Below, in pieces: positions 7,230 through 39,526 of a stretch of 64,000 nucleotides of DNA (positions within the stretch are counted from its first letter, which is position 1; every line of letters begins with the position of its first letter). The notes under the pieces are model-generated. The model did no database searches, had not been told where the DNA came from, and saw nothing but the letters and a program-made list of their open reading frames with translations. The position numbers and the translations under genes were made by a program. This DNA comes from Bdellovibrio sp. GTDB lineage: Bacteria > Bdellovibrionota > Bacteriovoracia > Bacteriovoracales > Bacteriovoracaceae. Where the stretch lies: assembly GCA_016187935.1 (NCBI GenBank), contig JACPIU010000008.1:292086-356085 (forward strand), in the 5' to 3' direction.

Positions 7230-8942
7230 ATGACTAAAAAAATTAATTTATCAATTTATCTTTCCAAGCTAGGCATTGCCCCTAACGATTGCGTCGATGG
7301 GGAAGCTGTTGCAGACACACATGCCGCGAGGATTGAGCTTTCATTAAAAGATGCTCCAGCTTCGTTTGCATACATCGGAATTACTCCCGCAAAAGAGCCA
7401 AAATGGATGAACCTTGTTAAGTTGAACACGGATAAAAGCGGTAAAGACAAGCTAGCGGAGATGAATACGTCGACAGTTAGCATATCGTGCATGATTGTAA
7501 TTCATTTAAAAAGCAAAATGAGATCATTTATTTTTTGTTTTGGACATGGAAAGAAATTTCTAAAATATGAGTCAGTTGAGAAAAATTTTGGCAGAAATCT
7601 TGTTCTAAATACCGCTGATGAGTCAAAAATATCAACGATAAGGACCAAAAGCTTCGAAAGCCAGCCTCTTTTCAAAGAGCTTCAATCACTCCTAACAACA
7701 GATCTTTATGAATTTGGATTCAATTGCGATTATGAACTACTTCAAAAGGTTGTAGGCAGTGCTGAGGGAAAACTTCCAAATACATTTTTTGAAAAACATG
7801 GAAAGGGTCAAAAAGAGCTATTGTCATATAAATTTTCTGGATACGAAGCAGTGAATATAAATGTTGATATTGAACATCTTGGCTGGTCTAAGTTATGCAA
7901 CTGGTTACTTGAAAAGTATTCAGAGAGAACATATAAAAAACTAATACCCAACATAGATTTTTTTGACTTCATAAAGGAGGAGTCCATTATTAAGTCAAGA
8001 AATGACGAGTTAATAGCACTCATCAGAGCTAATCAACTCGACGATATAGCTCTATGCATTCCTGAAAAAATTGAGAATGATGATATTACGGGGTTTGAAA
8101 TTAAAGGGACAAAATATACAAAAGATAGCCAGCTCGAACGATTGATTCTGGATGATATTACAGAGGCACTGAGAGAAGTCGGAAAACTTGGGGCCATTGA
8201 CATTGACGACTTAAAAAGATGGAAGGTGAATGCTTTTGCAGGCGATGATTTCAGGGGCACTTGGAGCATTTTCAGATGTTTAACTATTGAGCTACTTAAG
8301 CCAGACGGGAGGTATGTTCTTTCAGATGGCGAATGGTACCGCTTAGATAAAAATCATTTCACCAAAACAGTGAAAGATTTAAATACAAGAGTTCAGATTA
8401 ACCCATTTCCGTCTTTCTCCATCAGCGTACACAAAGATGAAGCAGGTTATAATAAAGCGGTTAGTGCTCAGTTCGGGCACTACCTGTTTGATAGAAAGTT
8501 GCAAGCAAGTTCCTTAGGGCAAGAAATTGAGCCATGCGATGTACTCTGCTATTTAAAGGATTTTTTACATATTAAAAGATCAAAATCTTCTCAGTCACTT
8601 AGCCACCTTTTTAATCAAGGAGTTGTTTCGAACGAATTAATTGTTAGGGGTGATACAATTTTTACAACAAATATTGTTAGTTCTGTTGACAAGAAAGATC
8701 AAAAAAACATCAGTGAGATTATTGAAAAGAAAAGGCACGAGGTTTCTTTTGCCATCATCGTTGAGAATCGAAAACAGATTGATCTCTCAAAAAAAATTGA
8801 AAACCTTCCAGCTTTTAGTATTATTTCACTTTCAAAAACTGTTGAAATAATAGAGAGAGGTGGGAAAAAAGTAAAAATTTACTTGATTCCAACTGGCACT
8901 GCTCCTAAGCAGAAAGTGAAGATTATAAAGAAAAAGGCTTAA
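7230..8942 (+). CDS. large orphan protein (570 aa), possibly a TIGR04141/DUF6119-like sporadically distributed family
   Basis: Intact 570 aa ORF with no catalytic motif recognised. Converges on the defense operon with a 16 bp gap. Family assignment is from memory only. Confidence 0.5.
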   Translation: MTKKINLSIYLSKLGIAPNDCVDGEAVADTHAARIELSLKDAPASFAYIGITPAKEPKWMNLVKLNTDKSGKDKLAEMNTSTVSISCMIVIHLKSKMRSFIFCFGHGKKFLKYESVEKNFGRNLVLNTADESKISTIRTKSFESQPLFKELQSLLTTDLYEFGFNCDYELLQKVVGSAEGKLPNTFFEKHGKGQKELLSYKFSGYEAVNINVDIEHLGWSKLCNWLLEKYSERTYKKLIPNIDFFDFIKEESIIKSRNDELIALIRANQLDDIALCIPEKIENDDITGFEIKGTKYTKDSQLERLILDDITEALREVGKLGAIDIDDLKRWKVNAFAGDDFRGTWSIFRCLTIELLKPDGRYVLSDGEWYRLDKNHFTKTVKDLNTRVQINPFPSFSISVHKDEAGYNKAVSAQFGHYLFDRKLQASSLGQEIEPCDVLCYLKDFLHIKRSKSSQSLSHLFNQGVVSNELIVRGDTIFTTNIVSSVDKKDQKNISEIIEKKRHEVSFAIIVENRKQIDLSKKIENLPAFSIISLSKTVEIIERGGKKVKIYLIPTGTAPKQKVKIIKKKA

Positions 8943-8958
8943 CTTGATTGTAGTTTTC

Positions 8959-9639
8959 CTAGACTTTTACTTTTAAAAAGCAATGAGCCCCCAATTCCCA
9001 TAAAAATTTATAATTATTTCCGAGGATTATTGGTGGCCCATAATTATTTGTCTTGTAGTCTAATTTTTTGCATGCAGTATATTCTGCTCCATGCCTAAAA
9101 TCAAAATCTCCAGTATCATTCGAATAAGTTTTCTGATCAACATAATGTCGATGATCCGTGCCGACTATTAAAAAACCTAAATCAGAGATTCGATTACTCA
9201 CGTATGTCTCAAGATTTTTCAAATCGACAAATACATCATAGCGATTGTTTGGCTCGCGCTGGTTTATCTTTTTAAAGAATTTCAGTTCAATCGCGCAGAA
9301 GGCAGGCTTTTCATTTTTTTCTGTATTTTCAAATTTTAGAAAGATATCAATATTAGCTTTATTTGAATTACTCTTCAGAAAGGATTGTCCGACAAGTGAT
9401 ACAGGGGCTTCAAGTTCAATTGAAAAATGATCATTGGCCGAGTACTCCGCCAATTCGCCAAGTATTTTAAAAATGCTTGCTAAGTGAAGCTGTAATGAAG
9501 CCTCATTATTTATTGTCGTCATGCCCGATTCAAGTCTCTTGTGTAAGATCATCAATCCATCATCGACAATTTTCTCTAACCTATTGTTATAACTTTCTAC
9601 TTCGATTGGAGAGCAAGGATGAGCACTTCTCAGCATCAT
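8959..9639 (-). CDS. small protein with a possible PD-(D/E)xK nuclease-like core
   Basis: NIDIFLKF ...(about 20 aa)... CAIELKF fits a D...ExK arrangement. Start overlaps the stop of the upstream gene (translational coupling). Confidence 0.35.
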   Translation of the reverse strand: MMLRSAHPCSPIEVESYNNRLEKIVDDGLMILHKRLESGMTTINNEASLQLHLASIFKILGELAEYSANDHFSIELEAPVSLVGQSFLKSNSNKANIDIFLKFENTEKNEKPAFCAIELKFFKKINQREPNNRYDVFVDLKNLETYVSNRISDLGFLIVGTDHRHYVDQKTYSNDTGDFDFRHGAEYTACKKLDYKTNNYGPPIILGNNYKFLWELGAHCFLKVKV

Positions 9640-9640
9640 T

Positions 9641-10597
9641 TTAAACCACCGAACTTAAAAGAGATAAGTCTTGAGTATTCAGCAAATGCTTAATCTTAGG
9701 CCTTAATTTTTCCACAAGCTCCTCAAGGTTTACATAGTATTCAATGTTCCATTGCGCCAGATGAAATTCCGCTTTAGAACCTACAGGGCAAGTTAGAATC
9801 AAATCTGTTCCAATAGCACGGGCAAAACCAAACTCATAATACACATTAGGCCGATTGCCTCCTAAGTCGCAAATAACTAGAAGTGACTTCTCTAGCCACT
9901 TTTCAACTGATGGAGAAATTCTGTCTTTATGGACCAAGGAAGGATTATCAATTTTATCAATGCTTGCCCTACAGTCAGTGGCCAAATCAGAAGCTTTTTT
10001 TATTGCAAGAAATTTTTCATGAGCCATCAATACTTCATCATGATCAGTGTTCCTATTCGGGAAAGCCATCATTACAGCAATATCAGGGATATCATATATC
10101 CTTCTATCTTGAACACTTTTCATAACTATAAAATTGGTCTTTAGATTGTATTCATCTATTTTCCTATCTATTAGACTTTCCAAGGGATCACTAAAGCTGC
10201 AAAAGCTTGATGCGCCAATCGCTACATATCTCTCATTTCGTCCTGTTTTTATAGCGATGTTGTCAATAACCGAGTTGTTCCATTGAACATAGCGCGCTGA
10301 TAATTTTTGCTTCAAATTAATTTTTGTCAAATTCCAAAATAAATTACTATCTCTCCGTCTGGACTCCTTTAGCAGCAAATCTAAATCTTCCAAAGTTAAT
10401 TCAAAAATTTTTCTGAACATTTTCCCAACGATCTCTCCTACTAATTTAGCGTATGAACTTTCTCTAATAATATGTGTCTCTAACTCGTTAATAGCGACAT
10501 CCAGCTCTGCCCTCTTTTGCTCTGTAATTTCAGCTTCTCTATTAAAAAAAATTCTGTCAATTAACTCATTTGTTGCTTTTGAAAAAAAGTCATTCAT
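9641..10597 (-). CDS. protein with a C-terminal NDT/LOG/TIR-like Rossmann domain (candidate effector or sensor)
   Basis: DIAVMMAF strand, then LLVICDLGGNRPNVYYEFGFARAIGTDLIL. This matches the nucleoside 2-deoxyribosyltransferase/TIR-like hallmark (conserved Glu in a YE.G.A..G context). Start overlaps the cyclase stop. Confidence 0.45.
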   Translation of the reverse strand: MNDFFSKATNELIDRIFFNREAEITEQKRAELDVAINELETHIIRESSYAKLVGEIVGKMFRKIFELTLEDLDLLLKESRRRDSNLFWNLTKINLKQKLSARYVQWNNSVIDNIAIKTGRNERYVAIGASSFCSFSDPLESLIDRKIDEYNLKTNFIVMKSVQDRRIYDIPDIAVMMAFPNRNTDHDEVLMAHEKFLAIKKASDLATDCRASIDKIDNPSLVHKDRISPSVEKWLEKSLLVICDLGGNRPNVYYEFGFARAIGTDLILTCPVGSKAEFHLAQWNIEYYVNLEELVEKLRPKIKHLLNTQDLSLLSSVV

Positions 10598-10598
10598 A

Positions 10599-11471
10599 TT
10601 AAGCCTTTTGCAGTAATCTTCTTACTGGATTTAAAACATCGCCATTGAAATTATGACACTTCAATCTGTAGCAGGTAATAAAAGAAACATAGGATTTAAG
10701 CCAGTTGTACTTTGAAAAATAGTTCAGGTCTTTATAAAGGCCAAGAATTATATTTTCGGCAATTTTTTTTACAAGATTTGTGCCGTTAACATTTGCTAAA
10801 CTGCCCACATAATCTACAAAAAGATGTGTATCTCTATCAAAAGGCATATTCATTTCTTCAAGCATTCTCCAGTCAAAAAGGAGCGACGAATAATCGTTCA
10901 TTGATCTTGGTTCAGAAAAATATTCATAGAGCCGACCTCCATTTACCGCCTCAATGAAATCTTGAAGCATCGCGAATTCGCAATACTCTGCAATTTTAGG
11001 ATCAACAATTACTCGTGGATACTTGGCAATTTCACTTTCAAGTCGGTATGCACTAACGAGTGCCGGGCCGGCAATTACATTTTTCGCTTTGTCTATAAAG
11101 ACTTTTCCTTTTGAAACTCCTCCCCTTGTCCAAAAATTATTTAATGCAAGTTGAGCTTGCATCCTTGAAATACTAACAAGAAATTTTTTCAGAGATTTTA
11201 TTTTATTACACTGATTATTTGCGCCATTGAATTCAGCAGCGAGCAGAGGTGCTGTGATGATTATAGAATCACTAATTACAAAAAAATTTATGTCGTCTTC
11301 TCCATCAACTAAGTCCAAGACATCTAGGAATCCCAGGACTGTAGAAAAATAAAAACTCAAATCATCCTCGGATTTTTCTCCAAAAACTTTTTCTTTAAAA
11401 CCTAGAACATCAATAAAGGCAACATAGCATTCCTCATAATCAACATTCACCCTATAGTTTTTTTCTCTCAC
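10599..11471 (-). CDS. class III nucleotidyl cyclase homology domain protein (Pycsar PycC-like or novel cyclase)
   Basis: YVAFIDVLGFKE (metal Asp1, like FADIVGFT). FFVISDSIII (Asp2, like KTIGDAYM). RGGVSKGKVF...AGPALVSAYRLESE (like GDTVNTAARMES). Confidence 0.55.
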   Translation of the reverse strand: MREKNYRVNVDYEECYVAFIDVLGFKEKVFGEKSEDDLSFYFSTVLGFLDVLDLVDGEDDINFFVISDSIIITAPLLAAEFNGANNQCNKIKSLKKFLVSISRMQAQLALNNFWTRGGVSKGKVFIDKAKNVIAGPALVSAYRLESEIAKYPRVIVDPKIAEYCEFAMLQDFIEAVNGGRLYEYFSEPRSMNDYSSLLFDWRMLEEMNMPFDRDTHLFVDYVGSLANVNGTNLVKKIAENIILGLYKDLNYFSKYNWLKSYVSFITCYRLKCHNFNGDVLNPVRRLLQKA

Positions 11472-11572
11472 CTAAATCTCCAAGTCAAAATTAATCGGCC
11501 CAATTCAGTAAGACAAATTTTGCGAGATTTAAGTAGCTCGCAAGTGAAAAGAGGTAAAAAAGATACATGATC

Positions 11573-13387
11573 TTAAAGCTTTCCAAACTGTTTAAAGATT
11601 TCACGAATCTCCTGGAATATGTCTGGAGTCACAGTTGGTGCAGCTTTGATATATAAGCGCTTGAGTGTGGCAACATCAATTGGCGTCTTCGAAGCAAATT
11701 TTTTTAATATCGGCTTGCCAGGAATCTGTTTTTGCCATTCATCGGAATCATAAATTATGAAATTCGAAAGTCTTGCAAAGTCGGTACGTACAAGTTCTCG
11801 GACTATATTAGTATCGAGAGTACTACTAATTCTTTTTACTTCTGAATCCCGTTGTACATCAAAAAGAGACTCAAGCTTTGCTACATCAACACAGTGACAT
11901 TCCTGAGGCATCAAATCTGCATTGCCTGTGGCATTACGTAGTCGATGTGCGACGTGTAATGCAACGGCATAGGATAGAAAATCTTTAGCAATCGTCAGGA
12001 GTTCTGCTCTGATTTTGACCGGATCACACAACCACGATCCTTTCGGTTCATCTAGTTGCTCGAACACACGCGCGATCACGTTTTCGTTCAAAAAGTAATT
12101 TTCAACATGATAACGGGGAAGAATTTTAAGGCGCCCCCCTGTTTTGTCACCGGACGTACTGGTCATGCAGTCACCATCACAGAGCATGAAGAAGTCTACC
12201 CCCCATACTGTTTTGTTAAGGACTGTTTCAAATGCCTTCACAAACGAATGAATACTTTCTTTGCCTCCTGTTGGCACAAGCACGAATTCAGGGTGCTCTG
12301 ATCCAACAATGCTGCCATACGTTTGTTTATCTAGGCTCGATGAAATTCCCTCGATGAGCACTATTTTCTTCCCAAGTGAGATCACACCTATGGATTGACC
12401 GATCAAATGTAGCACTTTCGATGCTTCGTCATCTTCTCTAAGCTGTACTGCCTGGTTTGGCCTTCCTGTGTTTGGAGGAGCCACAAAAACTACCGATTGA
12501 TCAAGTGAGGCAGTGATAATGTCAGGGGAATGCGTAGAGAGAATAAACTGATTCCTCTCACCAATATCACGCAATGTACGTAAAAGTCGGTATGACAACT
12601 CTGGGTGAAGATGAAGCTCCGGCTCGTCGAAAATAATAATACAGTCCTTCGGATCACGGAGTAAAAAATCGAACACAATAGAAACTACCTCGCGTTCGCC
12701 GGAACTCAACGAGGTTAGTGGGAGAACAGTACCATTGGTCTTAAATGAGACTGTCTGCGATCGTTCATTCAGCTTTTCGAGTGTCTTACCAGGCAGTAGT
12801 TTTGTAAATGCATCTTCAAATTTTTCTAGTGGATATTGAAAATCGAGAGGCATTGACTTTTCGCCTGACTCTTTCAAGAGAAGTGCGCGTTTAGATATTT
12901 CTTCTTTCTGGCTTCTAACTTTTCTATACAACGAATGAATGGTGTCCTGAAACCGGCCTCTCAAAGGTTGATATACTGTATTCCAGCCTATGTTCTCCTG
13001 TAGGGGATCAGCCGACTCCCAATTAAAGTTGTATGGCTGTACTTGTTCGAGTTGGCGAGCCGAGTCAAAATTAAGCACACTGCTTCTAAGCTGGCCCCGC
13101 TTCTGTTGGCGTTGCAAGAAAGCACGGAGTTTCGCTGCTTCTGCCGGAATCGAGGTTTGCAACGTATGCTGTCCCCAGGCTGCCACCTCTTCCTGATTCG
13201 TAGCACGTACTTTTGCAATAATACTCGGAAGGCCACCAGGATTTTGAAACAGGTTTAATAACTGCACCATGAGGGTCGTCTTACCTACACCATTAGGACC
13301 AGCAAGAACAACCGTCTCAAAAAGTCCCTCGACGGAAAATGCTTCAATAGGTTTGGCACCTTTGACTGAGTAGGATTCAAGCTTCAT
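11573..13387 (-). CDS. OLD-family ATPase-TOPRIM nuclease (class 1 OLD-like)
   Basis: Walker A GPNGVGKTT. LSSGEREVV signature. IIIFDEPELHLHPEL Walker B. STHSPDII H-loop. C-terminal IVLIEGISSSLD ... CDGD TOPRIM/DUF4435-like Glu and DxD. 604 aa, matching P2 Old size. Confidence 0.7.
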   Translation of the reverse strand: MKLESYSVKGAKPIEAFSVEGLFETVVLAGPNGVGKTTLMVQLLNLFQNPGGLPSIIAKVRATNQEEVAAWGQHTLQTSIPAEAAKLRAFLQRQQKRGQLRSSVLNFDSARQLEQVQPYNFNWESADPLQENIGWNTVYQPLRGRFQDTIHSLYRKVRSQKEEISKRALLLKESGEKSMPLDFQYPLEKFEDAFTKLLPGKTLEKLNERSQTVSFKTNGTVLPLTSLSSGEREVVSIVFDFLLRDPKDCIIIFDEPELHLHPELSYRLLRTLRDIGERNQFILSTHSPDIITASLDQSVVFVAPPNTGRPNQAVQLREDDEASKVLHLIGQSIGVISLGKKIVLIEGISSSLDKQTYGSIVGSEHPEFVLVPTGGKESIHSFVKAFETVLNKTVWGVDFFMLCDGDCMTSTSGDKTGGRLKILPRYHVENYFLNENVIARVFEQLDEPKGSWLCDPVKIRAELLTIAKDFLSYAVALHVAHRLRNATGNADLMPQECHCVDVAKLESLFDVQRDSEVKRISSTLDTNIVRELVRTDFARLSNFIIYDSDEWQKQIPGKPILKKFASKTPIDVATLKRLYIKAAPTVTPDIFQEIREIFKQFGKL

Positions 13388-14245: not shown

Positions 14246-14473
14246 TTTTATTCTGGTTATTTGGTTAATCTACATATTCTATTCATGCAATGAAGTAGGT
14301 TGCATCCCGCTCGCCCCCGCCCATGAAATACGATGCAAAAATAAACTCAGATAACATTTGAAAAAGATAAGCTGCTAAAACCCTTACTGAGCCACACACA
14401 GCAACATTTAGGTCAATGAGTTTTTAGTGTTCACAAAAAGATTTCTCATTTTCTAACCGACAAGGGCAACAAC

Positions 14474-14764
14474 CTAGGCCACATCTCGAATATTCAACTC
14501 CACCGAAAGACTTAAGGCAGAGGCCAGACGAATTAATCGTTCAATGGAAACACTTTGAAGACTGCCGTTCACAATTCCAGACACCACCGTCCTTGAGAGT
14601 CCAGAGGCTTCTGCAAGTTCGGCACAGGTTAGCTCTCTCACCTCTGTCTCCTTAATGATCCGTTTTTTGAGTGTCGTCTTCATCTTCGAGATCAGTACCC
14701 TATCCGATGTGACCCCCAGGTCCTTCCCAAATTCCTCAATGGTCTTATAGCGTTTCATTTTCAT
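14474..14764 (-). CDS. higA: HigA-family XRE HTH antitoxin
   Basis: LTCAELAEASGLSRTVVSGIVNG helix-turn-helix. Overlaps the toxin stop. Confidence 0.75.
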   Translation of the reverse strand: MKMKRYKTIEEFGKDLGVTSDRVLISKMKTTLKKRIIKETEVRELTCAELAEASGLSRTVVSGIVNGSLQSVSIERLIRLASALSLSVELNIRDVA

Positions 14765-15078
14765 TCCAACCTCTTTATTCTCTGAATAGACACCTCAATG
14801 TCTTTCTTGGATGTCTGATTTGTTTTCTTCTGGAAACCGTGGACAAGATAAATGGCGCCCCCTTTTTTTATAAAGTAGATGACCCGATAAACGCCAGACC
14901 GCTCCCTAAAGCGAAGTTCAAACACACCTGGGCCCATACCTTCCATCTTTTTTGAGAAAGGCATGCTCAAAGTTATGCCGGCCTTAAGATCGGCGATAGC
15001 ATCCACCAATTCCTCTTTGACCTTCAAAGGAAACTCACTTATTTCCCTTGCGCACTGAGGCAATACAACCACATCCAC
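14761..15078 (-). CDS. higB: HigB/Gp49-like RelE/ParE-superfamily toxin
   Basis: GPGVFELRF...YRVIYF...IYLVHGFQKKT is the Gp49/HigB hallmark. GTG start preceded by AAGGAG. Confidence 0.75.
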   Translation of the reverse strand: MDVVVLPQCAREISEFPLKVKEELVDAIADLKAGITLSMPFSKKMEGMGPGVFELRFRERSGVYRVIYFIKKGGAIYLVHGFQKKTNQTSKKDIEVSIQRIKRLE

Positions 15079-15094
15079 ATCAGTCTCCTTGTTT

Positions 15095-15120
15095 TAGATT
15101 GTCGCATTTTTGTGACAAAA
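15095..15120 (-). promoter_or_regulatory. imperfect palindrome TTGTCGCAtttttGTGACAA upstream of higBA (candidate HigA operator)
   Basis: Inverted repeat directly 5' of the GTG start. A related copy TTGTCTCAttttcGTGACAA lies upstream of the decayed higBA at 28456-28475. Confidence 0.45.
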
Positions 15121-15133
15121 ACTCAACCCTGTC

Positions 15134-15300
15134 TGAAATCTGTTCCGGTTTGTTCCGGTCGGCACATGAAACACCATGAAATTGGATGAAAGAAGATGAA
15201 AATCAAAAAGGGTCAAGCTCGCTTAATCATTCGTAATTAATTGATATTAAAGACTAAATTTTTGAGCCCCGAAGTGCCCCCTTGGGAGTACCAGTTTATA
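15134..15300. repeat. TA-upstream repeat family, copy A (phased CATGAAA iterons)
   Basis: About 85 % identical to 18367-18530 and 28507-28587. Contains CATGAAAcaCCATGAAAttggATGAAAgaagATGAAA. Confidence 0.85.
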
Positions 15301-15303
15301 GAT

Positions 15304-15338
15304 GAGGCCATTTGAGACAACAAATCAAATGGCCTTTT
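15304..15338. terminator. hairpin plus T-run
   Basis: GAGGCCATTTGAGACAACAAATCAAATGGCCTTTTCATTTT. Confidence 0.5.
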
Positions 15339-15726
15339 CATTTTAAATCGTACAGTTACGCCATCCAAGAATTAATTTTAACTTATAGGTTTGATAAATT
15401 GGGAAGCGACACCCCGAAAAGGAAATTCCCGTAGAATTAAAGGTAAGTTTAAACCACTGAAAATAAAGCTCTTGCATGTTTTCGCACGAATCGTTGCCGT
15501 ACCCCAAAACCCTTCGCACAGGCAGGGGCTTCGGATTCTTGAAGTTCCAACTTCCCCAACATAGGGTAGCCGATAACCATGTTCTCACAAACATTCCTTT
15601 TTGTATGTCCTCAATCATGACGTATTGAAAGGTGGAAGTCCAAAACTTATCCAATTCAATCTTCGGAAATAGTTTTCGCACACTTCCTGCACAAGAGGTG
15701 ACAAAGACCACACACATCCTGTAAAT

Positions 15727-17323: not shown

Positions 17324-17571
17324 TCAAGAATAAGGACCTCGCCAGTCTTTAACTTTTTGAGATCCCCGTCGCGAGAAATATTCCTAGAAACGATCGGACA
17401 TATCTTTGTATTCCCGGTAGCTTAACCTTGTGGCCTTGGCCTGCTTCCCACGCAAAATTTTCTTGATGCGTTTTTGCGGCAGATAAGGGCCATGCTCCTT
17501 GTTCTTACAAGAAAGACCGACTCAATTTTTGAGACAGAAGAGTATGTCACTATGCTCATATTCTACTTCTC

Positions 17572-17720
17572 AGACGTAAAGCGACCTTCTGTACTGATCA
17601 ATCAACCGACCAACAATTTCTTTCTCTTTACTCTCTAACTCCTTTCTCATCTGCGCAATTTCAAAATCAGTAACTACATCTTCAAACGACGGAGTCTTGA
17701 CTAAAACAATATTTTGCATA
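17572..17720 (-). pseudogene. duplicated 3' fragment of the M48 peptidase gene (28745-30052)
   Basis: About 80 % nucleotide identity to 28748-28880. Encodes ...DFEIAQMRKELESKEK..RLIDQYRRSLY only. Confidence 0.7.
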
Positions 17721-17753
17721 AAACTCTATTATTCAAATTCTTTATTTCAATAA

Positions 17754-17996
17754 TTACGCCGTCTTCTTAAGTCGATCCAATCCATCCAAAATAAACACCC
17801 GAATGAGAACTTGATAAGGAATCCCCTGCACTTCGGCCATCGCTTTTAATTCTTGAATTGTCGTTTCATCTAAAGCCACACTTGTCGGTTTCTTCGGTGC
17901 ATCTTTAAAACGTTTCATTGCGGCGAGAATTTTCTTTGAATCTAACTCTACTGGAGCTTCATATTCTTTCAAAGATTTTGCGTGAGATTTCTTCAT
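17754..17996 (-). CDS. brnA: BrnA-family antitoxin
   Basis: Downstream partner of BrnT. C-terminal IPYQVLIRVFILDGLDRLKK is BrnA-like. Confidence 0.6.
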   Translation of the reverse strand: MKKSHAKSLKEYEAPVELDSKKILAAMKRFKDAPKKPTSVALDETTIQELKAMAEVQGIPYQVLIRVFILDGLDRLKKTA

Positions 17997-18315
17997 ACTG
18001 TTTCCTCTCTTTTTTATGTGCCGGACGGGCGCTAATAACTCGGACGCGCCCACTTCTTAAAACAAAAGCAATCTGTAAAAGCTGGCCACTAATACTTGGG
18101 CCGATTAAGCCGAGCCTTTGCTCATTGGCCAATGGACTGATTTGGATTCCTAAAGGCAGGGCCATTCCTGAACGAAAAACTGCTTCGACTTCTTCAATTT
18201 CAATCCCATGCTTCCTAGCATTTTTTGTCAGATTGCCTTCATCCCACTCAAACTCGAAGTGCGAGGTTTCTAAAATCCAAAATAACAGCCATTCAACAAA
18301 TTCCCACTGTGCCAT
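17959..18315 (-). CDS. brnT: BrnT-family ribonuclease toxin
   Basis: FEWDEGNLTKNARKHGI hallmark and VISARPAHKKERKQYEE. Confidence 0.75.
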   Translation of the reverse strand: MAQWEFVEWLLFWILETSHFEFEWDEGNLTKNARKHGIEIEEVEAVFRSGMALPLGIQISPLANEQRLGLIGPSISGQLLQIAFVLRSGRVRVISARPAHKKERKQYEEISRKIFERI

Positions 18316-18322
18316 AAGACAC

Positions 18323-18355
18323 TATATCAACACTATCATAATAGTGTCAATATAT
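18323..18355 (-). promoter_or_regulatory. brnTA promoter with palindromic operator
   Basis: On the minus strand: TTGACA, 17 bp spacer, ATATAG. The -10 element ends about 6 nt from the ATG (possibly leaderless). It is embedded in the palindrome TATATCAACACTATCATAATAGTGTCAATATAT. Confidence 0.5.
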
Positions 18356-18366
18356 TGCCCCCTGTG

Positions 18367-18530
18367 TCGAAATCTGTTCCGGTTTGTTCCGGTCGGCGCA
18401 TGAAAAACCATGAAATTGGATGAAAGAAGATGAAAATCAAAAAGGGACAAGCCCGCTAAATCATTCGTAATTAATTGTATTTAAAGACAAATTTTTTCTG
18501 GCACTAAGTTCCCCTTGGGAGTACCAAATA
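18367..18530. repeat. TA-upstream repeat family, copy B
   Basis: Homologous to 15134-15300. Confidence 0.85.
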
Positions 18531-18533
18531 CTT

Positions 18534-18564
18534 AAAAGCCCCTGAAATCAGGGGCTTTTTTTTT
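18534..18564. terminator. bidirectional rho-independent terminator
   Basis: AAAAGCCCCTGAAATCAGGGGCTTTTTTTTT. Confidence 0.65.
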
Positions 18565-18667
18565 GCCTAAAACCCAAGATGAGACAGACAGGATGTCTGG
18601 CTTAGCGCCTGAGGCGACCGACCGAAGGAGGCCGGAGGAAAGAATGCACTACCACAGGATTCCTTTA

Positions 18668-20500
18668 ACCTTAGAACCCAAATCCGTCATTAGACACATT
18701 GCACTTCCGCTAAGGAAGTTAATTTCACAGAAGTTCCGACGATATTTCGACATTACCGCCAGATTATGTAGCGCAAATATTTTTTTCTCCAAAAATCGGC
18801 CCCATTTTTTTCGAGCTTGGCCAAAAACGCCTCGTAATTACCCTCCTGGCGTGTATGGAGGGCAATCGAACATTAATGGGTCACGTAGCTCCGCTGGGAA
18901 AATCCTAATTATTCTTTTGTCAAAGAGCAGACACTTACAAGGGCGTAGTGTGCCTATCAATTGCAAGTGCAGGAAAAATCCTTAGCGAAGTAAAAAGTTT
19001 GTGGATTGCTCCACTTAAACGGGGCACCTCCTTGTAAATATGATTGCTAAATCTAATCACAATTTTTCTTTGTCCCTGTCGGACCTCACTGGCGAGATAA
19101 ACCATTCTTCGTCGAACGCGTTTTAGAAAGCATCCCGTCTCAGGGGCCACGATGAAAGCGGCAAATCGCATGAGGTTGTAAGCAAAAATTCCCATGAGCC
19201 CCCAAGCACGATTGGCATTGAGTTTTTGGCAGGGGAAGTGCAAAAAATCCATGCCGTACTTCAGATCCTTGATGTGATTTTCACAGTTGGCGCGCTGACG
19301 ATAGAATTTGATAATCGCCTCATTTTTCATCTCGCTTTCGCTGATGTTGGTGATGATGGCGTAATAGTCATAGTGACGTTTGTCTTCCTTGGTGACCACT
19401 CTCTTTTTTGCCCGAATAAAAACCACGCGCAAAAATGATCGTCCCTTCAGCCCCTTATTGAGGTAAAAACAATTGGCCACTTGGCACGGCCTTTTCTGGC
19501 CCAAATCTATATCTTCCTTGTTCACAAAAAATTGCAATTTGATTTTATTCCATGGCATTTTGAATTCCTGCTCATCGAGCAGTGGCCCCCAAACAACTTC
19601 ACTGAGGCAGATGGCAAATTTTACATCATGGGCGAGAAGGGCATTATAGGTACTGACATTGCCATAGGCGCTGTCGGCGCGGAAATAGCGAGGAACATTT
19701 TTCGGAATTGCACTGAAGATTTTTTGAATCATATTGGTGGCACCGACACTCGAATGAGTCGCGCCACTTCGCAGTTCCCAACCATAACAAAATCCATATT
19801 GATCGAAAGCGTTTTGACTACTCAACCCCAATTGCTTCTTATGTCCGTCAAATTCTACTCCCTCCATTTGCACGCCATATTGCTTGTGCACAGTGGAGTC
19901 CATGGTAATGATAAAACGCTCGTCTTGAATGCAGAATTTTTGTCGCAGTTTTAGACACAATGTCGGAAGAAAATTTTGAATCTGCTCAATTTCCTTGAGG
20001 CGAAATATACGCAAAAATTTGCCCATGGTGGTCGAAGCGACGCCACCACGGATAATTCGCAAAAAACCTGGTCTTCTCGCAGATCGTTGAGGTCGTCCAA
20101 GCACTCGGCACCTGCAATAAATGCCAGGATGGCCGCTATAAACTTATTTTTTGCTGCAAGGCCACGCATTCTCTGCATGCGAGGCAAGATTTTGGCCAGT
20201 TCCCCCATAAATCCTAAACGATTGAGCAGCTCGTTGAAAAAAAATAAGCCCGAAAGTGCAGAAAGTTCTTTTCTTGTTTTTTCGATCACGATACTTTTGA
20301 AGTTCAAAAGAAACCTCTTTTGTTTTTTTATTTTTTTGTTTGGCGATAAAAAGATATCTAAACAAAGAGGTTTTTTCATTCTGCACGGCCATGAACGCAG
20401 GGCCGCATAAATCCAAAAATGGTGAAAGCTGCATATTCCGATGAAAGGCCGAATGGCATAGGTATCCGAGTATTTCTTGCTTAGGTTAAAGAAGGATTAC
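18668..20500 (-). mobile_element. IS1380-family insertion sequence (transposase frameshifted into two ORFs)
   Basis: DDE transposase with YRQRANCENHIKDLK. N-terminal 142 aa ORF (19951-20379) and C-terminal 389 aa ORF (18935-20104) overlap in different frames. Candidate terminal inverted repeats CTTTAACCTTAG (about 18672) and CTAAGGTTAAAG (about 20485). Confidence 0.7.
18935..20379 (-). pseudogene. IS1380-family transposase, split by a frameshift (or programmed frameshift)
   Basis: Two overlapping ORFs together give about 480 aa. Confidence 0.65.
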
Positions 20501-21011: not shown

Positions 21012-21335
21012 TCAGGATGCCAACTTCCCCGCAATCTCCACATCCCCCGCCAAAATCTCCAACAACCTCGCAGCCGCCCCATCCGGCTCCCTCTGCCCCT
21101 GCTCCCAAGACCTAATCGTCGGAGGCTTAACATTCAAAAGCGAAGCAAACTCCGGCTGGCTCATCTTAAAAATTTCTTCCCTAAGTTTCTTAATCTCTTT
21201 CTTAGTCCATTTTGGCGCAGGACGAGACAAAGCCCTCGTCCTCTCGCGACCTTTCCCGACACCCTTCTCAATTTCAATGGCCTGCTGAAGTCCCTTCATA
21301 AGCCCATCAGCCATTCTATTTTTTTTCATACCCAA
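21012..21335 (-). CDS. XRE/HTH antitoxin (HigA-2-like)
   Basis: MSQPEFASLLNVKPPTIRSWEQGQREP HTH. Overlaps the toxin stop. Confidence 0.65.
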   Translation of the reverse strand: MGMKKNRMADGLMKGLQQAIEIEKGVGKGRERTRALSRPAPKWTKKEIKKLREEIFKMSQPEFASLLNVKPPTIRSWEQGQREPDGAAARLLEILAGDVEIAGKLAS

Positions 21336-21690
21336 CTCCTTTGATTATTTCTACTAACTTCTTCATTGCCTTTTTCTCACCAGCGCTTAAATCTTCGGCC
21401 TCGTCTTTTCCATAAACATACAAGAAGTAGGTACGTTCTCTATCTGGAAGATCGAGATAAATGACTCGTAATCCACCGTGCTTTCCTTTTTGCCTTGAAG
21501 GGTCTGCGGCCCTGAGCTTGCGCAATCCTCCTGTTCCAGAAATTGTCGCCCCGCAATCTGGGTCGTCAAGAATTTCATCTTCAATCAATCTGAGCAATTG
21601 CTGACCACCCAGTTCTTCTATCTTTTCCGTAAATATGGGTGTTTCTATAAACGTTCTGCGCATGTAATACATAGTATTACATAATACCAT
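21316..21690 (-). CDS. RelE/ParE-superfamily toxin (HigB-2-like)
   Basis: FIETPIF...DPDCGATISGTGGLRKLR...GKHGGLRVIYL. Confidence 0.65.
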   Translation of the reverse strand: MVLCNTMYYMRRTFIETPIFTEKIEELGGQQLLRLIEDEILDDPDCGATISGTGGLRKLRAADPSRQKGKHGGLRVIYLDLPDRERTYFLYVYGKDEAEDLSAGEKKAMKKLVEIIKGVGYEKK

Positions 21691-22807
21691 GTATTAGTCA
21701 ACCTCGGTCTGGTTTGGTCTAGTCACTGCATGAAATAGGATGTCCGATATCGGCCTAATGCAGCCACACTAATATTGCGCGATATTATAGTGGCCTAGTT
21801 TGGGCGATATTAGACACACTGGCTTCGGCCACCGCGACACCGGCCACGAATACTCGGTTCGGTGCGTAGCGCGGTAACGCTTCCGCACGTGGTGATTCGA
21901 AGTATGATTTGATGATTTGATTATTGGGACAGCAATTGGCGTCCGTTTGCCTTTTTTTGGCGCCCCAGGAGGGCGCCAAAACTGTTAGAGGTGATGATGC
22001 CGCGATTTCAACATTTACCTCGTGAGTTGGGTGAAAGCTATTCCTCGTTAAAAGTGAATAAGAAGTATTTGAAGAATAAAAAAGGCTAAGGATAGACACT
22101 TCATTCATAGCTCCACAACAAGCGCAAAAACAATAATACCTGGAATTATAAATTTCAATGGCATTTTACTTTTCTACTTCCTAGAGAACTTGAGATGATG
22201 CATGGCCACCCTTAGAGAAAGGCCTGTAAAAAAGTAAAAACTTCAGTTATTGTTTCAATGCTTCTTTGGTTTTTTCAAGCTCGTCATCAGTCAATTTTCC
22301 CCAAGCTTTCTGAATTTCGTTTGTTCAGTAAAGTTAAAGCGCTATTTACCTCCTGTTACAAGTAACGTTCTATTTCACCTTAAAATTTGGATTTGAAATA
22401 TGATCTTGGACATAGATACAGATCTTTCAACTCAGCAGATAGCCGACAAGTTTGTTTTTAAATTTCACCCACTTGGCACTTTTTCTGCTCTCTATTTTTT
22501 ATCTATAAATTGCCCCAAATTCGCTGGGAGTTTTCTCAAAATTTTGCTTGAGTGTTTTATATCCTAACTCTGAGAGACGATATTTTTTTGGGTACAGAAT
22601 ACGCATAGCTTTCGTTCTTGGCGGCAATAGAATTAAAAAAAAATTACGCGAGTTAGCCCTTTTCTGAAAATTCAATTCAACTTCACGATATTATTCTCAA
22701 ATCATCAGGAATTGCGAATTGCTTGTACCTATCATGACAAATTATAGCTATGATCCTAAGAATGTCATTGTTATAGTTTATAATTTACTATAAACTATAA
22801 ACTATAA

Positions 22808-25100: not shown

Positions 25101-25291
25101 GGTTCGGAAAGGAAGACTCCTTGTTATGAAATCACAACCAATCAAAATCTGGTCTGGTCACTGCATGAAATGCCATGAAAAATGATGAAAGAAGACGAGG
25201 GAGCGACCGTAGTGACTGAAGCCCCGGCACATGCCAAAATTTAAATAAAAAATGATTGGGACTATTTATGGTTTAATTTTTCTTAACTCTT

Positions 25292-27300: not shown

Positions 27301-27572
27301 CACTTCATCCTAAATCCGGTCATTAGACACATCGCACTTCCCCTGCGGAAGTTAATTTCACAGAACTATCCGACGATATATAGCTGCGCTTGTCTTCGAT
27401 CGACTTTGCCACCAGATTATGTGGGGCAAATATTTTCTTCTCTGTAAACTGGCACATCTTTCTCGAGCAAAACCAAAAATTTCTCGTCATTGCAACTCAT
27501 GGCTTGTGTTAGGTTGGAGTGCACTTTAATGGGTCACATAGCTCCGCTGCAAGATTTACCTAATTATTCTTT
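27301..27572 (+). repeat. solo copy of the IS1380-element terminal non-coding region
   Basis: About 85 % identical to 18684-18934. Confidence 0.7.
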
Positions 27573-27812
27573 TGCCTGCGCGATCCAACTCAGCCACTTG
27601 CGGCTCACCAGACCAAGTCTCAAACCCAGCTTGATAAACTTGTGAATATCAGTCTTCGTACAACTCGTAATATTTTTTCTTCATAAAAATTACAATCAGT
27701 TTGTAGGTTCCATACCTAAATCGTAAAGCACATTATCCCGATTTGCTCGTGAAATCAATTTTGGGACAGAGAAGTGAGCGTATAGAGGATGTTGTTCGCT
27801 TTGAAATAAACT

Positions 27813-28217
27813 TTACGCTTTCGGCCGCGTAAAAGACCAATGCGTCTGAATAATTTTCCAATTCCCCTCAAAATTGCGATAGACCTCGGTGCAGTTCCAG
27901 CGTGATGGTTCATTGTCTTTGCTATAAGAAACATAGTTAAAGGTCAAAACAGCAACGTCGCCGGCCACGCAAACGGCGGGATTGATCAGCTCGTAACGAT
28001 CGATGCTAATTTTTCCACGAAGATTTTCGTAATATCGAGTAAGCTCATCTAGTCCAGTAATGCGACGATCGAGAAACGGATCGAAGTATGTAACCTCTGG
28101 AGCGCAGAGTTCAAGACACCCGGACGGATCGCCCTTGCCCCAGCGATCGAGAGCGGCCTTCTCTAAATTTATGATCGTTTGTGCGATTTTTGAATCTTGT
28201 GCCATCTTAAGCGGCAT
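27813..28217 (-). CDS. NTF2-like (SnoaL/DUF4440-like) protein
   Basis: WNCTEVYRNFEGNWKIIQTHWS C-terminal pattern. Confidence 0.55.
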   Translation of the reverse strand: MPLKMAQDSKIAQTIINLEKAALDRWGKGDPSGCLELCAPEVTYFDPFLDRRITGLDELTRYYENLRGKISIDRYELINPAVCVAGDVAVLTFNYVSYSKDNEPSRWNCTEVYRNFEGNWKIIQTHWSFTRPKA

Positions 28218-28234
28218 CCTTAATATTGAGTTCC

Positions 28235-28440
28235 ACGGAAAGATTCAAAGCCGAAGCCAGGCGAATTAATCGTTCAATGGAAACACTTTGAAGACTGTCA
28301 TTCACGATTCCAGATACAACCGTCCGCGATAAACCAGAGGTCACTTTCATCCCAACCTCTTTATTCTCTGAATCGACACCTCAATATCTCTTTGAGGGGT
28401 CTTGTTTGTTTTCTTTTGAAACGCATGAACGAGATAAATG
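28235..28440 (-). pseudogene. decayed/deleted duplicate of higBA
   Basis: Nucleotide similarity to 14521-14600 and 14761-14880 with internal deletions. Confidence 0.7.
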
Positions 28441-28506
28441 CCATCTACCAGTTCCTCTTTAACCTTCAAGGTTGTCTCATTTTCGTGACAAAATTTCAAT
28501 ACATCA

Positions 28507-28587
28507 TGAAATCCGTTCTGATTTGTTCCGGTTGGCGCATGAAAACCATGAAATTGGATGAAAGAAGATGAGAATCAAAAAAGGCCA
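28507..28587. repeat. TA-upstream repeat family, copy C (truncated)
   Basis: Homologous to 15134-15215. Confidence 0.8.
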
Positions 28588-28744
28588 AGCTCGCCCTAGG
28601 CGCTTTGCCCAACTTTCAAATGGCAAAGAAAATGGAGTGTAAATAAAGTGATGGTTCGCCGGATATTACAGAAAAGATCTCATCTATCCACTTTTTCTGG
28701 TTTTCTTGAGGTTAAGCAATCATTCTTCTTTGACATGAATTATT

Positions 28745-30234: not shown

Positions 30235-30365
30235 AGTTCTCTGAAAAAATACCGTGATTTCTATTCGGAATTTCTTGTGGGCACTTGAATTATTCTTTGA
30301 TCAATGAAAAATTCGCCAGATATAGAATTTAGTCTGTTTTGAAAGAGACATTTTATTCTTTCGAT

Positions 30366-30470
30366 CGAGTAAAAGACCAATGCGCATGAATGATTTTCCA
30401 CTGACCAGCGAAATTGCGATAGATCTCAGAGCAGTTCCAACGTGAAGGTTCGTTCTCTCTGCTATAGAAG
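30366..30470 (-). pseudogene. duplicated 3' fragment of the NTF2-like gene
   Basis: About 80 % identity to 27825-27930. Confidence 0.6.
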
Positions 30471-39411: not shown

Positions 39412-39526
39412 TCTGCATTTCAAGACAGAGACTCTGTAAAACCTTCTAACCCCTTGAAAATGCCATCATTTGCGCCCTCCCCAAATGGCATTTAGATTGC
39501 AATTCTTGATTGGCATGGGGGAGTCT

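What the first reader, a model, noticed from the sequence alone, without database searches (positions are those of the whole stretch)
15134..15300. Repeat family with 10-bp-phased CATGAAA iterons upstream of every TA-like operon
Five minus-strand TA-like operons each have a related element immediately 5' of the operon: higBA (copy 15134-15300), brnTA (18367-18530), the RelE-like/HTH pair (21705-21740, truncated), the small/HTH pair (25145-25200) and the decayed higBA (28507-28587). The shared core is CATGAAA..CCATGAAA....ATGAAAGAAGA.GA. Copies A and B contain four ATGAAA units spaced 8-10 bp apart, that is, on one DNA face, and end in a strong hairpin terminator. This looks like an iteron or regulator-binding array, or a cassette-boundary element, shared by unrelated TA families. 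It is not explained by any of the individual TA genes.
Basis: seen in the sequence. Interest (0 to 1): 0.65.

Follow-up and report, generated by a model that had tools for sequence, protein, structure and literature searches.

The report
Conserved non-coding module beside toxin-antitoxin operons
A roughly 200-base non-coding DNA module made of 10-base-phased short repeats, an invariant 16-base block and its own transcription terminator is real and under selection. It belongs originally to one family of toxin-antitoxin genes in predatory Bdellovibrio-like bacteria, has been reused next to other toxin-antitoxin genes in this genome, and still needs an experiment to establish its function.

Summary
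The repeat family is real. There are five same-strand copies: A and B are full length, and E, D and C are progressively cut at the right end. All lie in a 15-kb toxin-antitoxin (TA)/defence island of a Bdellovibrio sp. MAG.

- **Structure.** The left half is 2x TGTTCCGG plus 4x ATGAAA at exactly 10-bp phase.
- **Error in the finding.** Copy D is not 5' of a TA operon. It lies between two converging stop codons.
- **Origin.** Homologous copies sit upstream of higBA homologues (76-81% HigB identity) in four unrelated metagenomes. They align almost without gaps, although higB third codon positions are only about 50% identical. The module is therefore the selected native 5' flank of one higBA clade, not junk.
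- **Absence elsewhere.** BrnT homologues in other genomes lack it.
- **Conserved parts.** These are TG(G/T)TC(Y)GG repeats next to the TA -35, the phased ATGAAA array, an invariant CCCCTTGGGAGTACCA block in a small hairpin, and a terminator facing away from the TA operon. The terminator shows one compensatory stem change.
- **What it is not.** No ORF is conserved, there is no Rfam match, it has no attC structure, and no rep, integrase or resolvase gene is in the window.

Best reading: a divergent control region, with a protein-binding array on the left and a small non-coding transcription unit on the right. C, D and E are relics. The mechanism is inferred, not shown.

The parts
15127..15345 (+). 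Copy A, full length. It holds TGTTCCGG x2 (15141-15148, 15151-15158), ATGAAA x4 (15166, 15176, 15186, 15196), the invariant 16-mer CCCCTTGGGAGTACCA (15278-15293), and a terminator hairpin 15304-15336 with T-rich tail to 15344.
18360..18572 (+). Copy B, full length but with a partly decayed right half. It holds TGTTCCGG x2 (18375, 18385), ATGAAA x4 (18400-18435), the 16-mer (18511-18526), and a terminator 18534-18559 followed by T9.
21696..21742 (+). Copy C, the shortest relic, of the GGTCTGG subtype. It has two TG(G/T)TC repeats, then CATGAAATAGGATG, then unrelated DNA.
25148..25200 (+). Copy D, a relic of the GGTCTGG subtype with one TGGTCTGG and three to four ATGAAA-type units. It lies between the Fic stop (25100, +) and the HTH gene stop (25292, -). 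It is not upstream of any TA operon.
28508..28595 (+). Copy E, cut after about 90 nt at ...CAAGCTCGC. It has a 1-nt deletion in the array and was co-duplicated with a deleted higBA.
14474..15078 (-). higBA operon: Gp49/PF05973 toxin 14761-15078 and HTH_37 antitoxin 14474-14764. The promoter is read by eye as TTGAGT-17-GACAAT, with the operator palindrome TTGTCAC-N6-GCGACAA. It directly abuts the left edge of copy A.
17754..18350 (-). brnTA operon: BrnT 17959-18315 and a CopG-like BrnA 17754-18053. Its promoter TTGACA-18-TATAGT runs 18350->18321, 9 bp from the left edge of copy B.
21012..21690 (-). RelE-like (PF06296) / HTH_3 pair. Its TTGACT -35 (read by eye) abuts copy C.
28203..28469 (-). 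Decayed higBA. Two internal deletions relative to 14474-15096; identity is 81-84% in the retained pieces.

Best explanation
**What it is.** The element is a conserved, non-coding intergenic control module of about 200 bp. It belongs ancestrally to one clade of higBA (Gp49/HTH_37) TA operons in Bdellovibrionota.

**Two parts.**
- The TA-proximal half is an array of protein-binding sites on one DNA face. It has two to three TG(G/T)TC(Y)GG sites next to the TA -35, then three to four ATGAAA units, all at 10-bp phase. It sits between the TA promoter and a divergent promoter.
- The distal half is a small non-coding transcription unit read away from the TA operon (the window + strand). It consists of a short variable stretch, a small hairpin carrying the invariant CCCCTTGGGAGTACCA, an A/U-rich spacer and a Rho-independent terminator. 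The RNA would be about 80 nt if it starts at the internal AT-rich -10-like box, or about 200 nt if it starts at the promoter-like sites that overlap the TA operators.

**History in this genome.** The module was multiplied inside a TA/defence island.
- A keeps its higBA.
- E was duplicated together with higBA and then truncated.
- B and C now abut brnTA and relE/xre promoters.
- D is an orphan stump.
- Only the promoter-proximal repeats survive in every copy.

**Shown versus inferred.**
- Shown: the family, its anatomy, its homologues elsewhere, its constraint, the terminator orientation, and the absence of a conserved ORF.
- Inferred: that the repeats bind a protein, that an RNA is made, and what either does.
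For: 1. **Homologues elsewhere.** Homologues lie upstream of higBA in other samples.
   - L212: HigB 76% identical; nhmmer 1.1e-13 with the A/B model, 3e-60 with the family model.
   - L217: 79%, 9e-13.
   - L218: 78%, cut by the contig end.
   - L208/L209: 81%, a degenerate A-type copy, 2.7e-07.
2. **Constraint.** A or B against L212 or L217 align over 154 columns with 0-1 gap at 60-62% identity (A/B vs the contig-truncated L218: 143 columns, 12-13 gap columns, 53-58%). higB third codon positions are only 48-53% identical. Identity is blockwise: the 16-mer is 94% identical, the repeats and array 65-71%, and a 23-nt spacer only 26-35%.
3. **Terminators.** They are oriented for the + strand in A, B and L212, with no + strand gene upstream. 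B and L212 stems differ by one compensatory pair, GCCCCTG/CAGGGGC vs GCCACTG/CAGTGGC.
4. **Small hairpin.** The 16-mer lies in a small hairpin.
   - It forms 7/7 pairs in A and L217 and 6/7 in L212 on the + strand RNA, through G.U/U.G.
   - It forms one pair fewer on the other strand.
   - L217's two substitutions fall in the loop and the bulge.
5. **No conserved ORF**.
6. **Promoter-like sites** read into the element from the TA operator region in B (TCAACA-18-TATATT) and in L212 (GTGACA-16-GAAAAT).
7. **Truncated copies.** All three keep the promoter-proximal end.
8. **Concerted change.** The two TG(G/T)TC(Y)GG units change together between lineages: TGTTCCGG x2 vs TGGTCTGG x2. In L212 and L218 they form a perfect palindrome, ACCAGACCATGGTCTGGT.
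Against: - There are no expression data.
- No consensus sigma-70 promoter passes the scan on the + strand of copy A. The internal -10-like box has no good -35, and it has decayed in B.
- The family has only about two independent lineages, so covariation support is thin. The RNAalifold covariation term is only -1.64 kcal/mol.
- The hairpin around the 16-mer is broken in B.
- The 16-mer region shows no better-than-background complementarity to the TA translation-initiation regions. No target is therefore proposed.
- Predicted intrinsic curvature at the array is only at the 94th-97th percentile of the window.
- The binding protein is unknown.
- The model does not explain how brnTA and relE/xre came to sit at the same edge of the module.
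Confidence: 0.45

Rival explanations
1. A purely cis-acting DNA element. The whole module is the extended upstream regulatory region of the TA promoter: distal operators or activator sites on one face, possibly with bent DNA. The terminator only insulates neighbours from divergent or read-through transcription. No functional RNA is made.
For: - The element always abuts the -35 of a TA promoter in A, B, C, E and all outside homologues.
- The truncated copies keep only the promoter-proximal repeats.
- Gap-free spacing and 10-bp phase fit a nucleoprotein complex.
- Multi-operator TA promoters are well known (own knowledge: hipBA, ccdAB).
Against: - The most conserved block, the 16-mer at 94%, lies about 150 bp from the TA promoter, next to the terminator.
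- The terminator faces away from the TA operon and keeps its stem through a compensatory change.
- Substitutions in the 16-mer hairpin are wobble-compatible on the + strand only.
- Copy D has no promoter to serve.
Confidence: 0.25
2. A site-specific recombination site (res/IRS/att-like) at which TA modules are swapped. This is the case in Tn3-family transposons, where TA pairs, including Gp49/HTH_37, always sit next to res subsite I and are exchanged by recombination there. The TA-proximal inverted or direct repeats would be the crossover and accessory sites, and the copies would mark cassette junctions.
For: - Three unrelated TA families abut the same edge in the same orientation.
- BrnT homologues elsewhere lack the element, so B is a new junction.
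- L212 and L218 have a perfect palindrome with a central AT plus an adjacent direct repeat.
- Strict spacing resembles that of res accessory sites.
- Published precedent: PMC7157771.
- The island is a mosaic of duplicated gene fragments.
Against: - No resolvase, integrase or Tn3-type transposase is found in the 64 kb or in the outside loci next to the element.
- A-type copies have no inverted half-site.
- TA modules in general end exactly at their -35 in different genomes, so a junction there needs no special site.
- The 16-mer and terminator are unexplained by this model.
- The right-hand truncation points of C, D and E differ.
Confidence: 0.12
3. Non-functional leftovers of one duplicated segment: the higBA 5' flank copied around the island with no role of its own.
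For: - A and E share the flanking higBA.
- C, D and E are truncated, and B's right half is decaying: 17 of 19 A/B differences lie there, and its hairpin is broken.
- No copy lies outside the island within the window.
Against: - The family is conserved without indels across metagenomes at a divergence where third codon positions are near saturation.
- C and D belong to a different subtype (GGTCTGG, as in L212), so they are not recent copies of A/B/E.
- Two independent new junctions with TA promoters, in the same orientation and within about 10 bp of the -35, are very unlikely by chance.
Confidence: 0.08
4. Replication iterons, an origin or a partition (centromere-like) site of an integrated plasmid-like unit; or an integron attC.
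For: - Direct repeats on one helical face.
- Same-orientation copies at about 3.3-kb intervals.
- TA genes as addiction modules.
Against: - No rep, par or intI gene is present.
- The units have a 6-8-bp core at 10-bp period, not 17-22-bp iterons.
- No inverted repeat spans the element and there is no GTTRRRY boundary.
- There is no match in the plasmid or phage collections.
- The B-C interval contains IS-derived DNA, so the even spacing is probably accidental.
Confidence: 0.04

Closest known systems
Tn3-family res / IRS sites with adjacent TA modules (Lima-Mendez et al. 2020, PMC7157771)
   Same: - It is a 100-200-bp non-coding region made of several short binding motifs with fixed spacing.
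- A TA pair, including the same Gp49/HTH_37 type, lies directly beside one end.
- Different TA families are found at the same edge.
- Promoters are embedded in or beside the site.
   Different: - No resolvase (TnpR, TnpI or TnpS/T) or TnpA lies nearby, and there are no transposon ends.
- A-type copies lack an inverted core.
- The element carries an invariant 16-mer hairpin and an outward-facing terminator, which res sites do not have.
Trans-acting small RNA genes with a 3' hairpin, U/A-rich spacer and Rho-independent terminator (Hfq-type architecture; own knowledge)
   Same: - The conservation pattern matches: a structure-conserved terminator with compensatory change, a strongly conserved short block, a variable 5' stretch, no ORF, and divergent placement next to a regulated operon.
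   Different: - No promoter is established and no target complementarity was found.
- There is no Rfam family.
- Half of the conserved unit is a phased DNA-repeat array that sRNA genes do not normally have.
Chromosomal integron cassette arrays (attC sites; TA cassettes in Vibrio superintegrons)
   Same: - Same-orientation repeats separate small gene groups.
- TA operons with their own promoters lie in reverse orientation beside the repeat.
- Copies within one genome are highly similar.
   Different: - There is no R''-L''/L'-R' hairpin, no GTTRRRY and no intI.
- Units are about 3.3 kb with several genes in both orientations.
- The copies are truncated, not complete.
Omega-repressor heptad arrays of pSM19035-family plasmids, upstream of the epsilon-zeta TA operon and other promoters (own knowledge)
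   Same: - Arrays of short direct or inverted repeats lie upstream of several promoters, including a TA operon.
- They are bound cooperatively by one small regulator.
   Different: - Heptads are contiguous at a 7-bp period and the regulator is encoded in the operon.
- Here the period is 10 bp, there are two motif types, and no cognate regulator has been identified.
Plasmid iterons
   Same: - Direct repeats are in phase on one DNA face.
   Different: - Iterons are 17-22 bp and sit beside rep and an AT-rich or DnaA-box region. None of that is present here.

Membership tests
Integron attC | Imperfect inverted repeats R''-L'' / L'-R' spanning the site, so that one strand folds into a long hairpin | tested here: not met
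   Folding of A and B on both strands gives only the terminator and small local stems. The consensus folds show no spanning helix.
Integron attC | Conserved GTTRRRY at the cassette boundary and an intI integrase next to the array | tested here: not met
   The boundaries read CCCTGTCTGAAATC and ...GTACCAG. No Phage_integrase hit was found in any ORF of the window.
Tn3-family res / IRS site | A TA pair placed directly beside one end of the site | tested here: met
   higBA, brnTA and relE/xre promoters lie within about 10 bp of the left edge. The criterion comes from PMC7157771.
Tn3-family res / IRS site | A core subsite that is an inverted repeat with a central crossover dinucleotide, plus accessory subsites | tested here: inconclusive
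   L212 and L218 have ACCAGACC-AT-GGTCTGGT plus a direct repeat. A, B and E have only two direct repeats and no inverted half-site.
Tn3-family res / IRS site | A cognate resolvase gene adjacent to the site, inside a transposon with terminal inverted repeats | tested here: not met
   No resolvase, recombinase or Tn3 transposase is present in the window or in L208-L218.
Plasmid iteron origin / partition site | 17-22-bp iterons next to a rep (or par) gene, an AT-rich region and DnaA boxes | tested here: not met
   The units are 10 bp with a 6-8-bp core. No rep or par gene was found. There is no similarity to 72,556 plasmids.
Described RNA families (Rfam 15) | A match at or above a family's gathering score | tested here: not met
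   The window gave 0 matches at gathering score. At the E-value threshold there were only sub-threshold, terminator-driven hits.
Small non-coding RNA gene | A Rho-independent terminator on the transcribed strand, conserved as structure | tested here: met
   A, B and L212 have + strand hairpins with T-runs, z-scores -3.1 to -3.9. There is one compensatory pair between B and L212.
Small non-coding RNA gene | Its own promoter, and a detectable transcript | tested here: inconclusive
   Promoter-like sites read into the element in B and L212, but none passes the scan in A. Expression cannot be tested with these tools.
Small non-coding RNA gene | No conserved ORF | tested here: met
   The six-frame translations of the copies differ. 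The 7-codon MKxDE[KR]x ORF follows automatically from three phased ATGAAA units and has no SD. The 14-16-aa ORFs are broken in L217 and L218.
MITE / IS end | Terminal inverted repeats and target-site duplications | tested here: not met
   The ends of the element are not complementary. The flanks show no duplications.
Type III TA antitoxin RNA (ToxI-like) | Tandem repeats of about 36 nt directly upstream of the toxin gene and on the same strand | tested here: not met
   The units are 10 nt, and the element's terminator shows transcription on the opposite strand.
Genome-wide intergenic repeat (REP/BIME-like) | Many copies scattered through the genome regardless of neighbouring genes | not testable with these tools
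   Only 64 kb of the 376,775-bp contig is available. All copies lie within 15-29 kb.

The most novel reading that the evidence does not exclude
The module could be the hallmark of an undescribed TA-cassette exchange system in Bdellovibrionota. In this reading it is a recombination and regulation site with no attC or IntI. Unrelated TA modules would be swapped at its edge, while its divergent small RNA, which carries four AUG-AAA motifs (start codon plus the AAA codon cleaved by some HigB-type toxins), senses or buffers toxin activity. The evidence does not exclude this, but no recombinase, transcript or target has been seen.
Probability: 0.1. Interest if true: 0.8.

Novelty: new member of a known kind. 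Interest (0 to 1): 0.42.

Why it matters
TA operons are normally thought to be controlled only by their own antitoxin at an operator in the promoter. Here one higBA clade carries an additional selected 200-bp non-coding module. It has phased binding sites and an outward-facing small transcription unit, and the same module sits in front of two unrelated TA families in one genome.

If the array binds a common regulator, or if the RNA acts on the toxins, this would be a layer of shared control over several TA systems in a predatory-bacteria lineage. If it is a recombination site, it would explain how TA modules are shuffled within defence islands that lack integrons.

Either outcome can be tested directly with the coordinates and alignment given here. 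As it stands, the finding is a well-defined new non-coding family with unknown function.

Tried and rejected
**Searches that found no further family members**
- Exact-pattern scan of 185,579 species genomes for the A/B core: 0 hits.
- Metagenome pattern scan: the pattern was too loose.
- Viral-contig scans with five DNA patterns and a HigB profile: nothing related.
- Plasmid and phage BLAST: no match.
- Syntenic loci of the flanking Band_7 gene in related MAGs: no element and no synteny.

**Readings that were rejected**
- Coding: rejected.
- tRNA or tmRNA fragment as an att site: no tRNA genes, and no T-arm lies before the ...GAGTACCA end.
- dif/Xer-like reading of ATCATTCGTAATTAATTGATATTAAAG: poor match to the consensus and not conserved between A and B (by eye).
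- oriT reading (hairpin followed by a conserved block): the hairpins behave as terminators and are not sequence-conserved.

**Tests that were negative or inconclusive**
- Seed-target complementarity to the TA translation-initiation regions: not above background.
- Intrinsic curvature: only moderately high.
- Even 3.3-kb spacing as a clue to mechanism: nominally unlikely, but one interval contains IS-derived DNA, so it is treated as a coincidence.
- Remnants of a recombinase beside A, C, D and E: none.

Full report
**Observation.** The repeat family is real.
- The repeat finder returns it as families D6, D10, D12 and D16.
- Self-BLAST of the window gives A (15127-15293) vs B (18360-18526) at 88.7% over 168 nt, A vs E at 84% over 127 nt, and B vs E at 90% over 88 nt.
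- Profile searches find exactly five copies, all on the + strand and all between 15 and 29 kb. With the five-sequence family model the E-values are A 1.5e-55, B 3.6e-55, E 1.9e-19, D 6.7e-06 and C 1.6e-04.
- A sixth site at 14321-14338 is marginal (E about 0.5).
- The core pattern occurs 8 times against 0.39 expected.

**Anatomy of the copies.**
- In A and B, two TGTTCCGG units and four ATGAAA units follow each other at exactly 10-bp start-to-start spacing.
- The copies share their left boundary and are cut at different points on the right. A and B are full length, E stops after about 90 nt, D after about 55 nt and C after about 45 nt.
- There are two subtypes: TGTTCCGG in A, B and E, and GGTCTGG in C and D.

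**Context.**
- Pfam identifies higB/higA (Gp49 / HTH_37), brnT/brnA, a RelE-like/HTH_3 pair, a Fic operon, a beta-lactamase-fold protein, an M48 peptidase, a SnoaL-like protein and a split DDE transposase.
- A, B, C and E lie within about 10 bp of the -35 of minus-strand TA promoters. For brnTA this is TTGACA-18-TATAGT.
- D does not. It sits between the stop of the + strand Fic gene (25100) and the stop of the minus-strand HTH gene (25292). The statement 'upstream of every TA-like operon' is therefore wrong for one of five.
- A and E share the adjacent higBA, which is heavily deleted in E. That pair is a segmental duplication.
- Other duplicated fragments show that the island is a recombination mosaic. 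They are the C-terminal part of the M48 gene, a SnoaL 3' end and an IS end.
- No integrase, resolvase or rep gene is present anywhere in the window.

**Source.**
- HigB is identical to MBI2519518.1 of an NCBI 'Bdellovibrio sp.' MAG, on a contig of 376,775 bp.
- Independent Logan assemblies of SRR12113424/5 reproduce the brnTA-B-IS junctions. One contig breaks inside the repeat, as expected for a repeat.

**Relatives elsewhere.**
- DNA pattern scans of genomes, metagenomes, viral contigs, plasmids and phages found nothing related.
- Going through the protein worked. Contigs encoding HigB homologues of 76-81% identity carry a homologous element in the same place and orientation:

| Locus | Source sample | HigB identity | Element |
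|---|---|---|---|
| L212 | JGI 3300042373 | 76% | full length with terminator |
| L217 | JGI 3300045994 | 79% | nearly full length |
| L218 | ENA ERZ28612991 | 78% | cut by the contig end |
| L208/L209 | Hainich groundwater | 81% | shortened A-type copy |

- HigB homologues of 70-73% identity (L210, L211, L213) have no detectable copy, although L210 keeps a faint phased ATGA pattern.
- BrnT homologues of 83-84% identity in other samples (L292-L300) lack the element. Their homology to the window stops right at the -35.
- The element is therefore the ancestral 5' flank of one higBA clade. Its position next to brnTA (B) and relE/xre (C) is a secondary juxtaposition in this genome.

**Evidence of selection.**
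- A or B against L212 or L217 align over 154 columns with 0-1 gap at 60-62% identity (against the contig-truncated L218: 143 columns, 12-13 gap columns, 53-58%). Third codon positions of the adjacent higB are only 48-53% identical.
- Conservation is blockwise:

| Block | Identity, A vs L212/L217 |
|---|---|
| CCCCTTGGGAGTACCA 16-mer | 94% (L212), 82% (L217) |
| TG(G/T)TC(Y)GG repeats and ATGAAA array | 65-71% |
| 23-nt spacer before the 16-mer | 26-35% |

- The two TG(G/T)TC(Y)GG units change together between lineages. In L212 and L218 they form a perfect palindrome, ACCAGACCATGGTCTGGT, followed by a direct repeat.

**Transcription away from the TA operon.**
- A, B and L212 each have a strong hairpin plus T-run oriented for the window + strand. 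This is divergent from the TA operon, and no + strand gene lies upstream.
- The B and L212 stems are homologous and differ by one compensatory pair.
- The 16-mer forms a small hairpin with the bases before it.
  - It makes 7/7 pairs in A and L217 and 6/7 in L212 when read as + strand RNA.
  - This depends on G.U/U.G pairs, which would be mismatches on the other strand.
  - L217's two substitutions fall in the loop and the bulge.
  - B's 5' arm is broken.
- Promoter-like sites that overlap the TA operators and point into the element exist in B and L212. None passes the scan in A.
- An internal AT-rich -10-like box is conserved but lacks a good -35.

**Coding potential.** No ORF is conserved. 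The 7-codon MKxDE[KR]x ORF is an automatic by-product of three phased ATGAAA units and has no Shine-Dalgarno sequence. Longer ORFs are broken in L217 and L218.

**RNA family and structure.** Rfam has no match. The consensus fold has little covariation support, because there are only about two independent lineages.

**Interpretation.**
- The best-supported reading is a bipartite control module.
  - Next to the TA promoter lies a protein-binding array on one DNA face.
  - Beyond it lies a small non-coding transcription unit read in the opposite direction, ending at its own terminator.
- C, D and E are truncated relics. They keep only the promoter-proximal repeats, which fits a cis role of that part for the TA promoter. 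B's distal half is decaying, with 17 of the 19 A/B differences located there.
- The binding protein, the RNA and its function are inferred, not shown.
- I found no complementarity between the conserved block and the TA translation-initiation regions.
- Predicted curvature was only moderately raised (wedge parameters were recalled from memory, so this is rough).

**Rivals.**
- *Purely cis-acting DNA with an insulating terminator.* This is the main rival. It does not explain why the most conserved block sits beside the outward-facing terminator.
- *A res/att-like recombination site.* It is attractive because Tn3-family transposons place TA pairs, including Gp49/HTH_37, beside res subsite I and swap them there (PMC7157771). 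Two new TA junctions at the same edge are also hard to get by chance. However, no recombinase is present and A-type copies lack an inverted core. TA modules in general end at their -35, so a junction there needs no special site.
- *Plain duplication junk.* This is excluded for the family as a whole by the cross-sample constraint, though it does describe C, D and E.
- *Iterons or attC.* Both fail their defining features.

**Spacing.** The copies are 3234, 3330, 3435 and 3374 bp apart. This is nominally unlikely (P between 2e-5 and 2e-3, post hoc). The B-C interval contains at least 1.4 kb of IS-derived DNA, so I regard the regularity as accidental and list it as unexplained.

**Verdict.**
- This is a real, selected and previously undescribed non-coding module. 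It is natively linked to a higBA clade of Bdellovibrionota and is reused beside other TA operons in one island.
- Interest is moderate. The element is well defined and testable, but its function is unknown and the kind of element (regulatory array plus small RNA) is familiar.

Noticed in passing
window 15165, 18399, 21729, 25164, 28538: The five copies are spaced 3234, 3330, 3435 and 3374 bp apart (CV 2.5%), although the intervening genes are unrelated. This is nominally improbable. One interval contains IS-derived DNA, so it is probably a coincidence, but it remains unexplained.
   Followed up: partly
window 14300-14340: CCCATGAAATACGATGCAAAA, downstream of higA, resembles the stump of copy C (CATGAAATAGGATG). 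It may be a sixth, very short relic, but nhmmer gives only E about 0.5.
   Followed up: partly
window 18563-20440 and 27309-27574: There is an IS-like element with a DDE_Tnp_1_4 transposase split into two ORFs (18935-20104 and 19951-20379). It was inserted right after the terminator of copy B. A 266-bp relic of the same IS end (72% identical) lies at 27309-27574. No clear terminal inverted repeats were found.
   Followed up: partly
window 17570-17731 (-) and 28745-30052 (-): A 53-codon ORF just downstream of brnA is 87% identical in DNA to the C-terminal 40 codons of the M48 peptidase gene next to copy E. It is either a gene fragment or a small stand-alone domain. It is also called as a gene in the Logan contigs.
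   Followed up: no
window 30320-30466 vs 27782-27926: A fragment of the 3' end of the SnoaL/DUF4440 gene is repeated 2.5 kb away at 78% identity. This is a further sign of mosaic recombination in the island.
   Followed up: no
L292:1017-1210 (and L293-L299): Upstream of a brnTA homologue (BrnT 83% identical) there is no significant match to the element, but the layout is similar. GGAGAACA/TGTTCTCC direct and inverted repeats sit next to the -35. About 150 bp away lies CCCGCTAGGGGGCACCAAC followed by T7, which resembles GGGAGTACCA plus a terminator. It may be a very distant relative or an analogue.
   Followed up: partly
L212 and the 16,361-bp JGI contig of sample 3300059473 (no DNA held): In a related metagenome contig the element lies between divergent brnTA and higBA operons. 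The same contig also carries RES-Xre and Phd-type modules, so it is another TA-rich island.
   Followed up: partly
window 7230-13387: Defence-like genes lie left of the TA array: DUF6119 (7230-8942), an AAA_15/AAA_21 ATPase with a DUF4435 tail (11573-13387), and three ORFs without any Pfam match (8959-11471).
   Followed up: no
window 36240-37184; 39470-42439; 53465-53608: There are three repeat-rich coding regions. Six tandem 129-bp repeats lie in a Reg_prop-domain gene. A 989-aa protein carries RCC1 repeats. A CARDB-domain protein contains 12-bp Pro/Thr-rich tandem repeats.
   Followed up: no
L128-L149: The flanking Band_7 protein (30972-33029) has 70-77% identical relatives in MAGs labelled Bacteriovoracaceae and Pseudobdellovibrionaceae, but also Alphaproteobacteria, Pirellulales and Polyangiales. 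Neighbouring genes show no synteny. This suggests mis-binning, inconsistent taxonomy labels or gene mobility.
   Followed up: no
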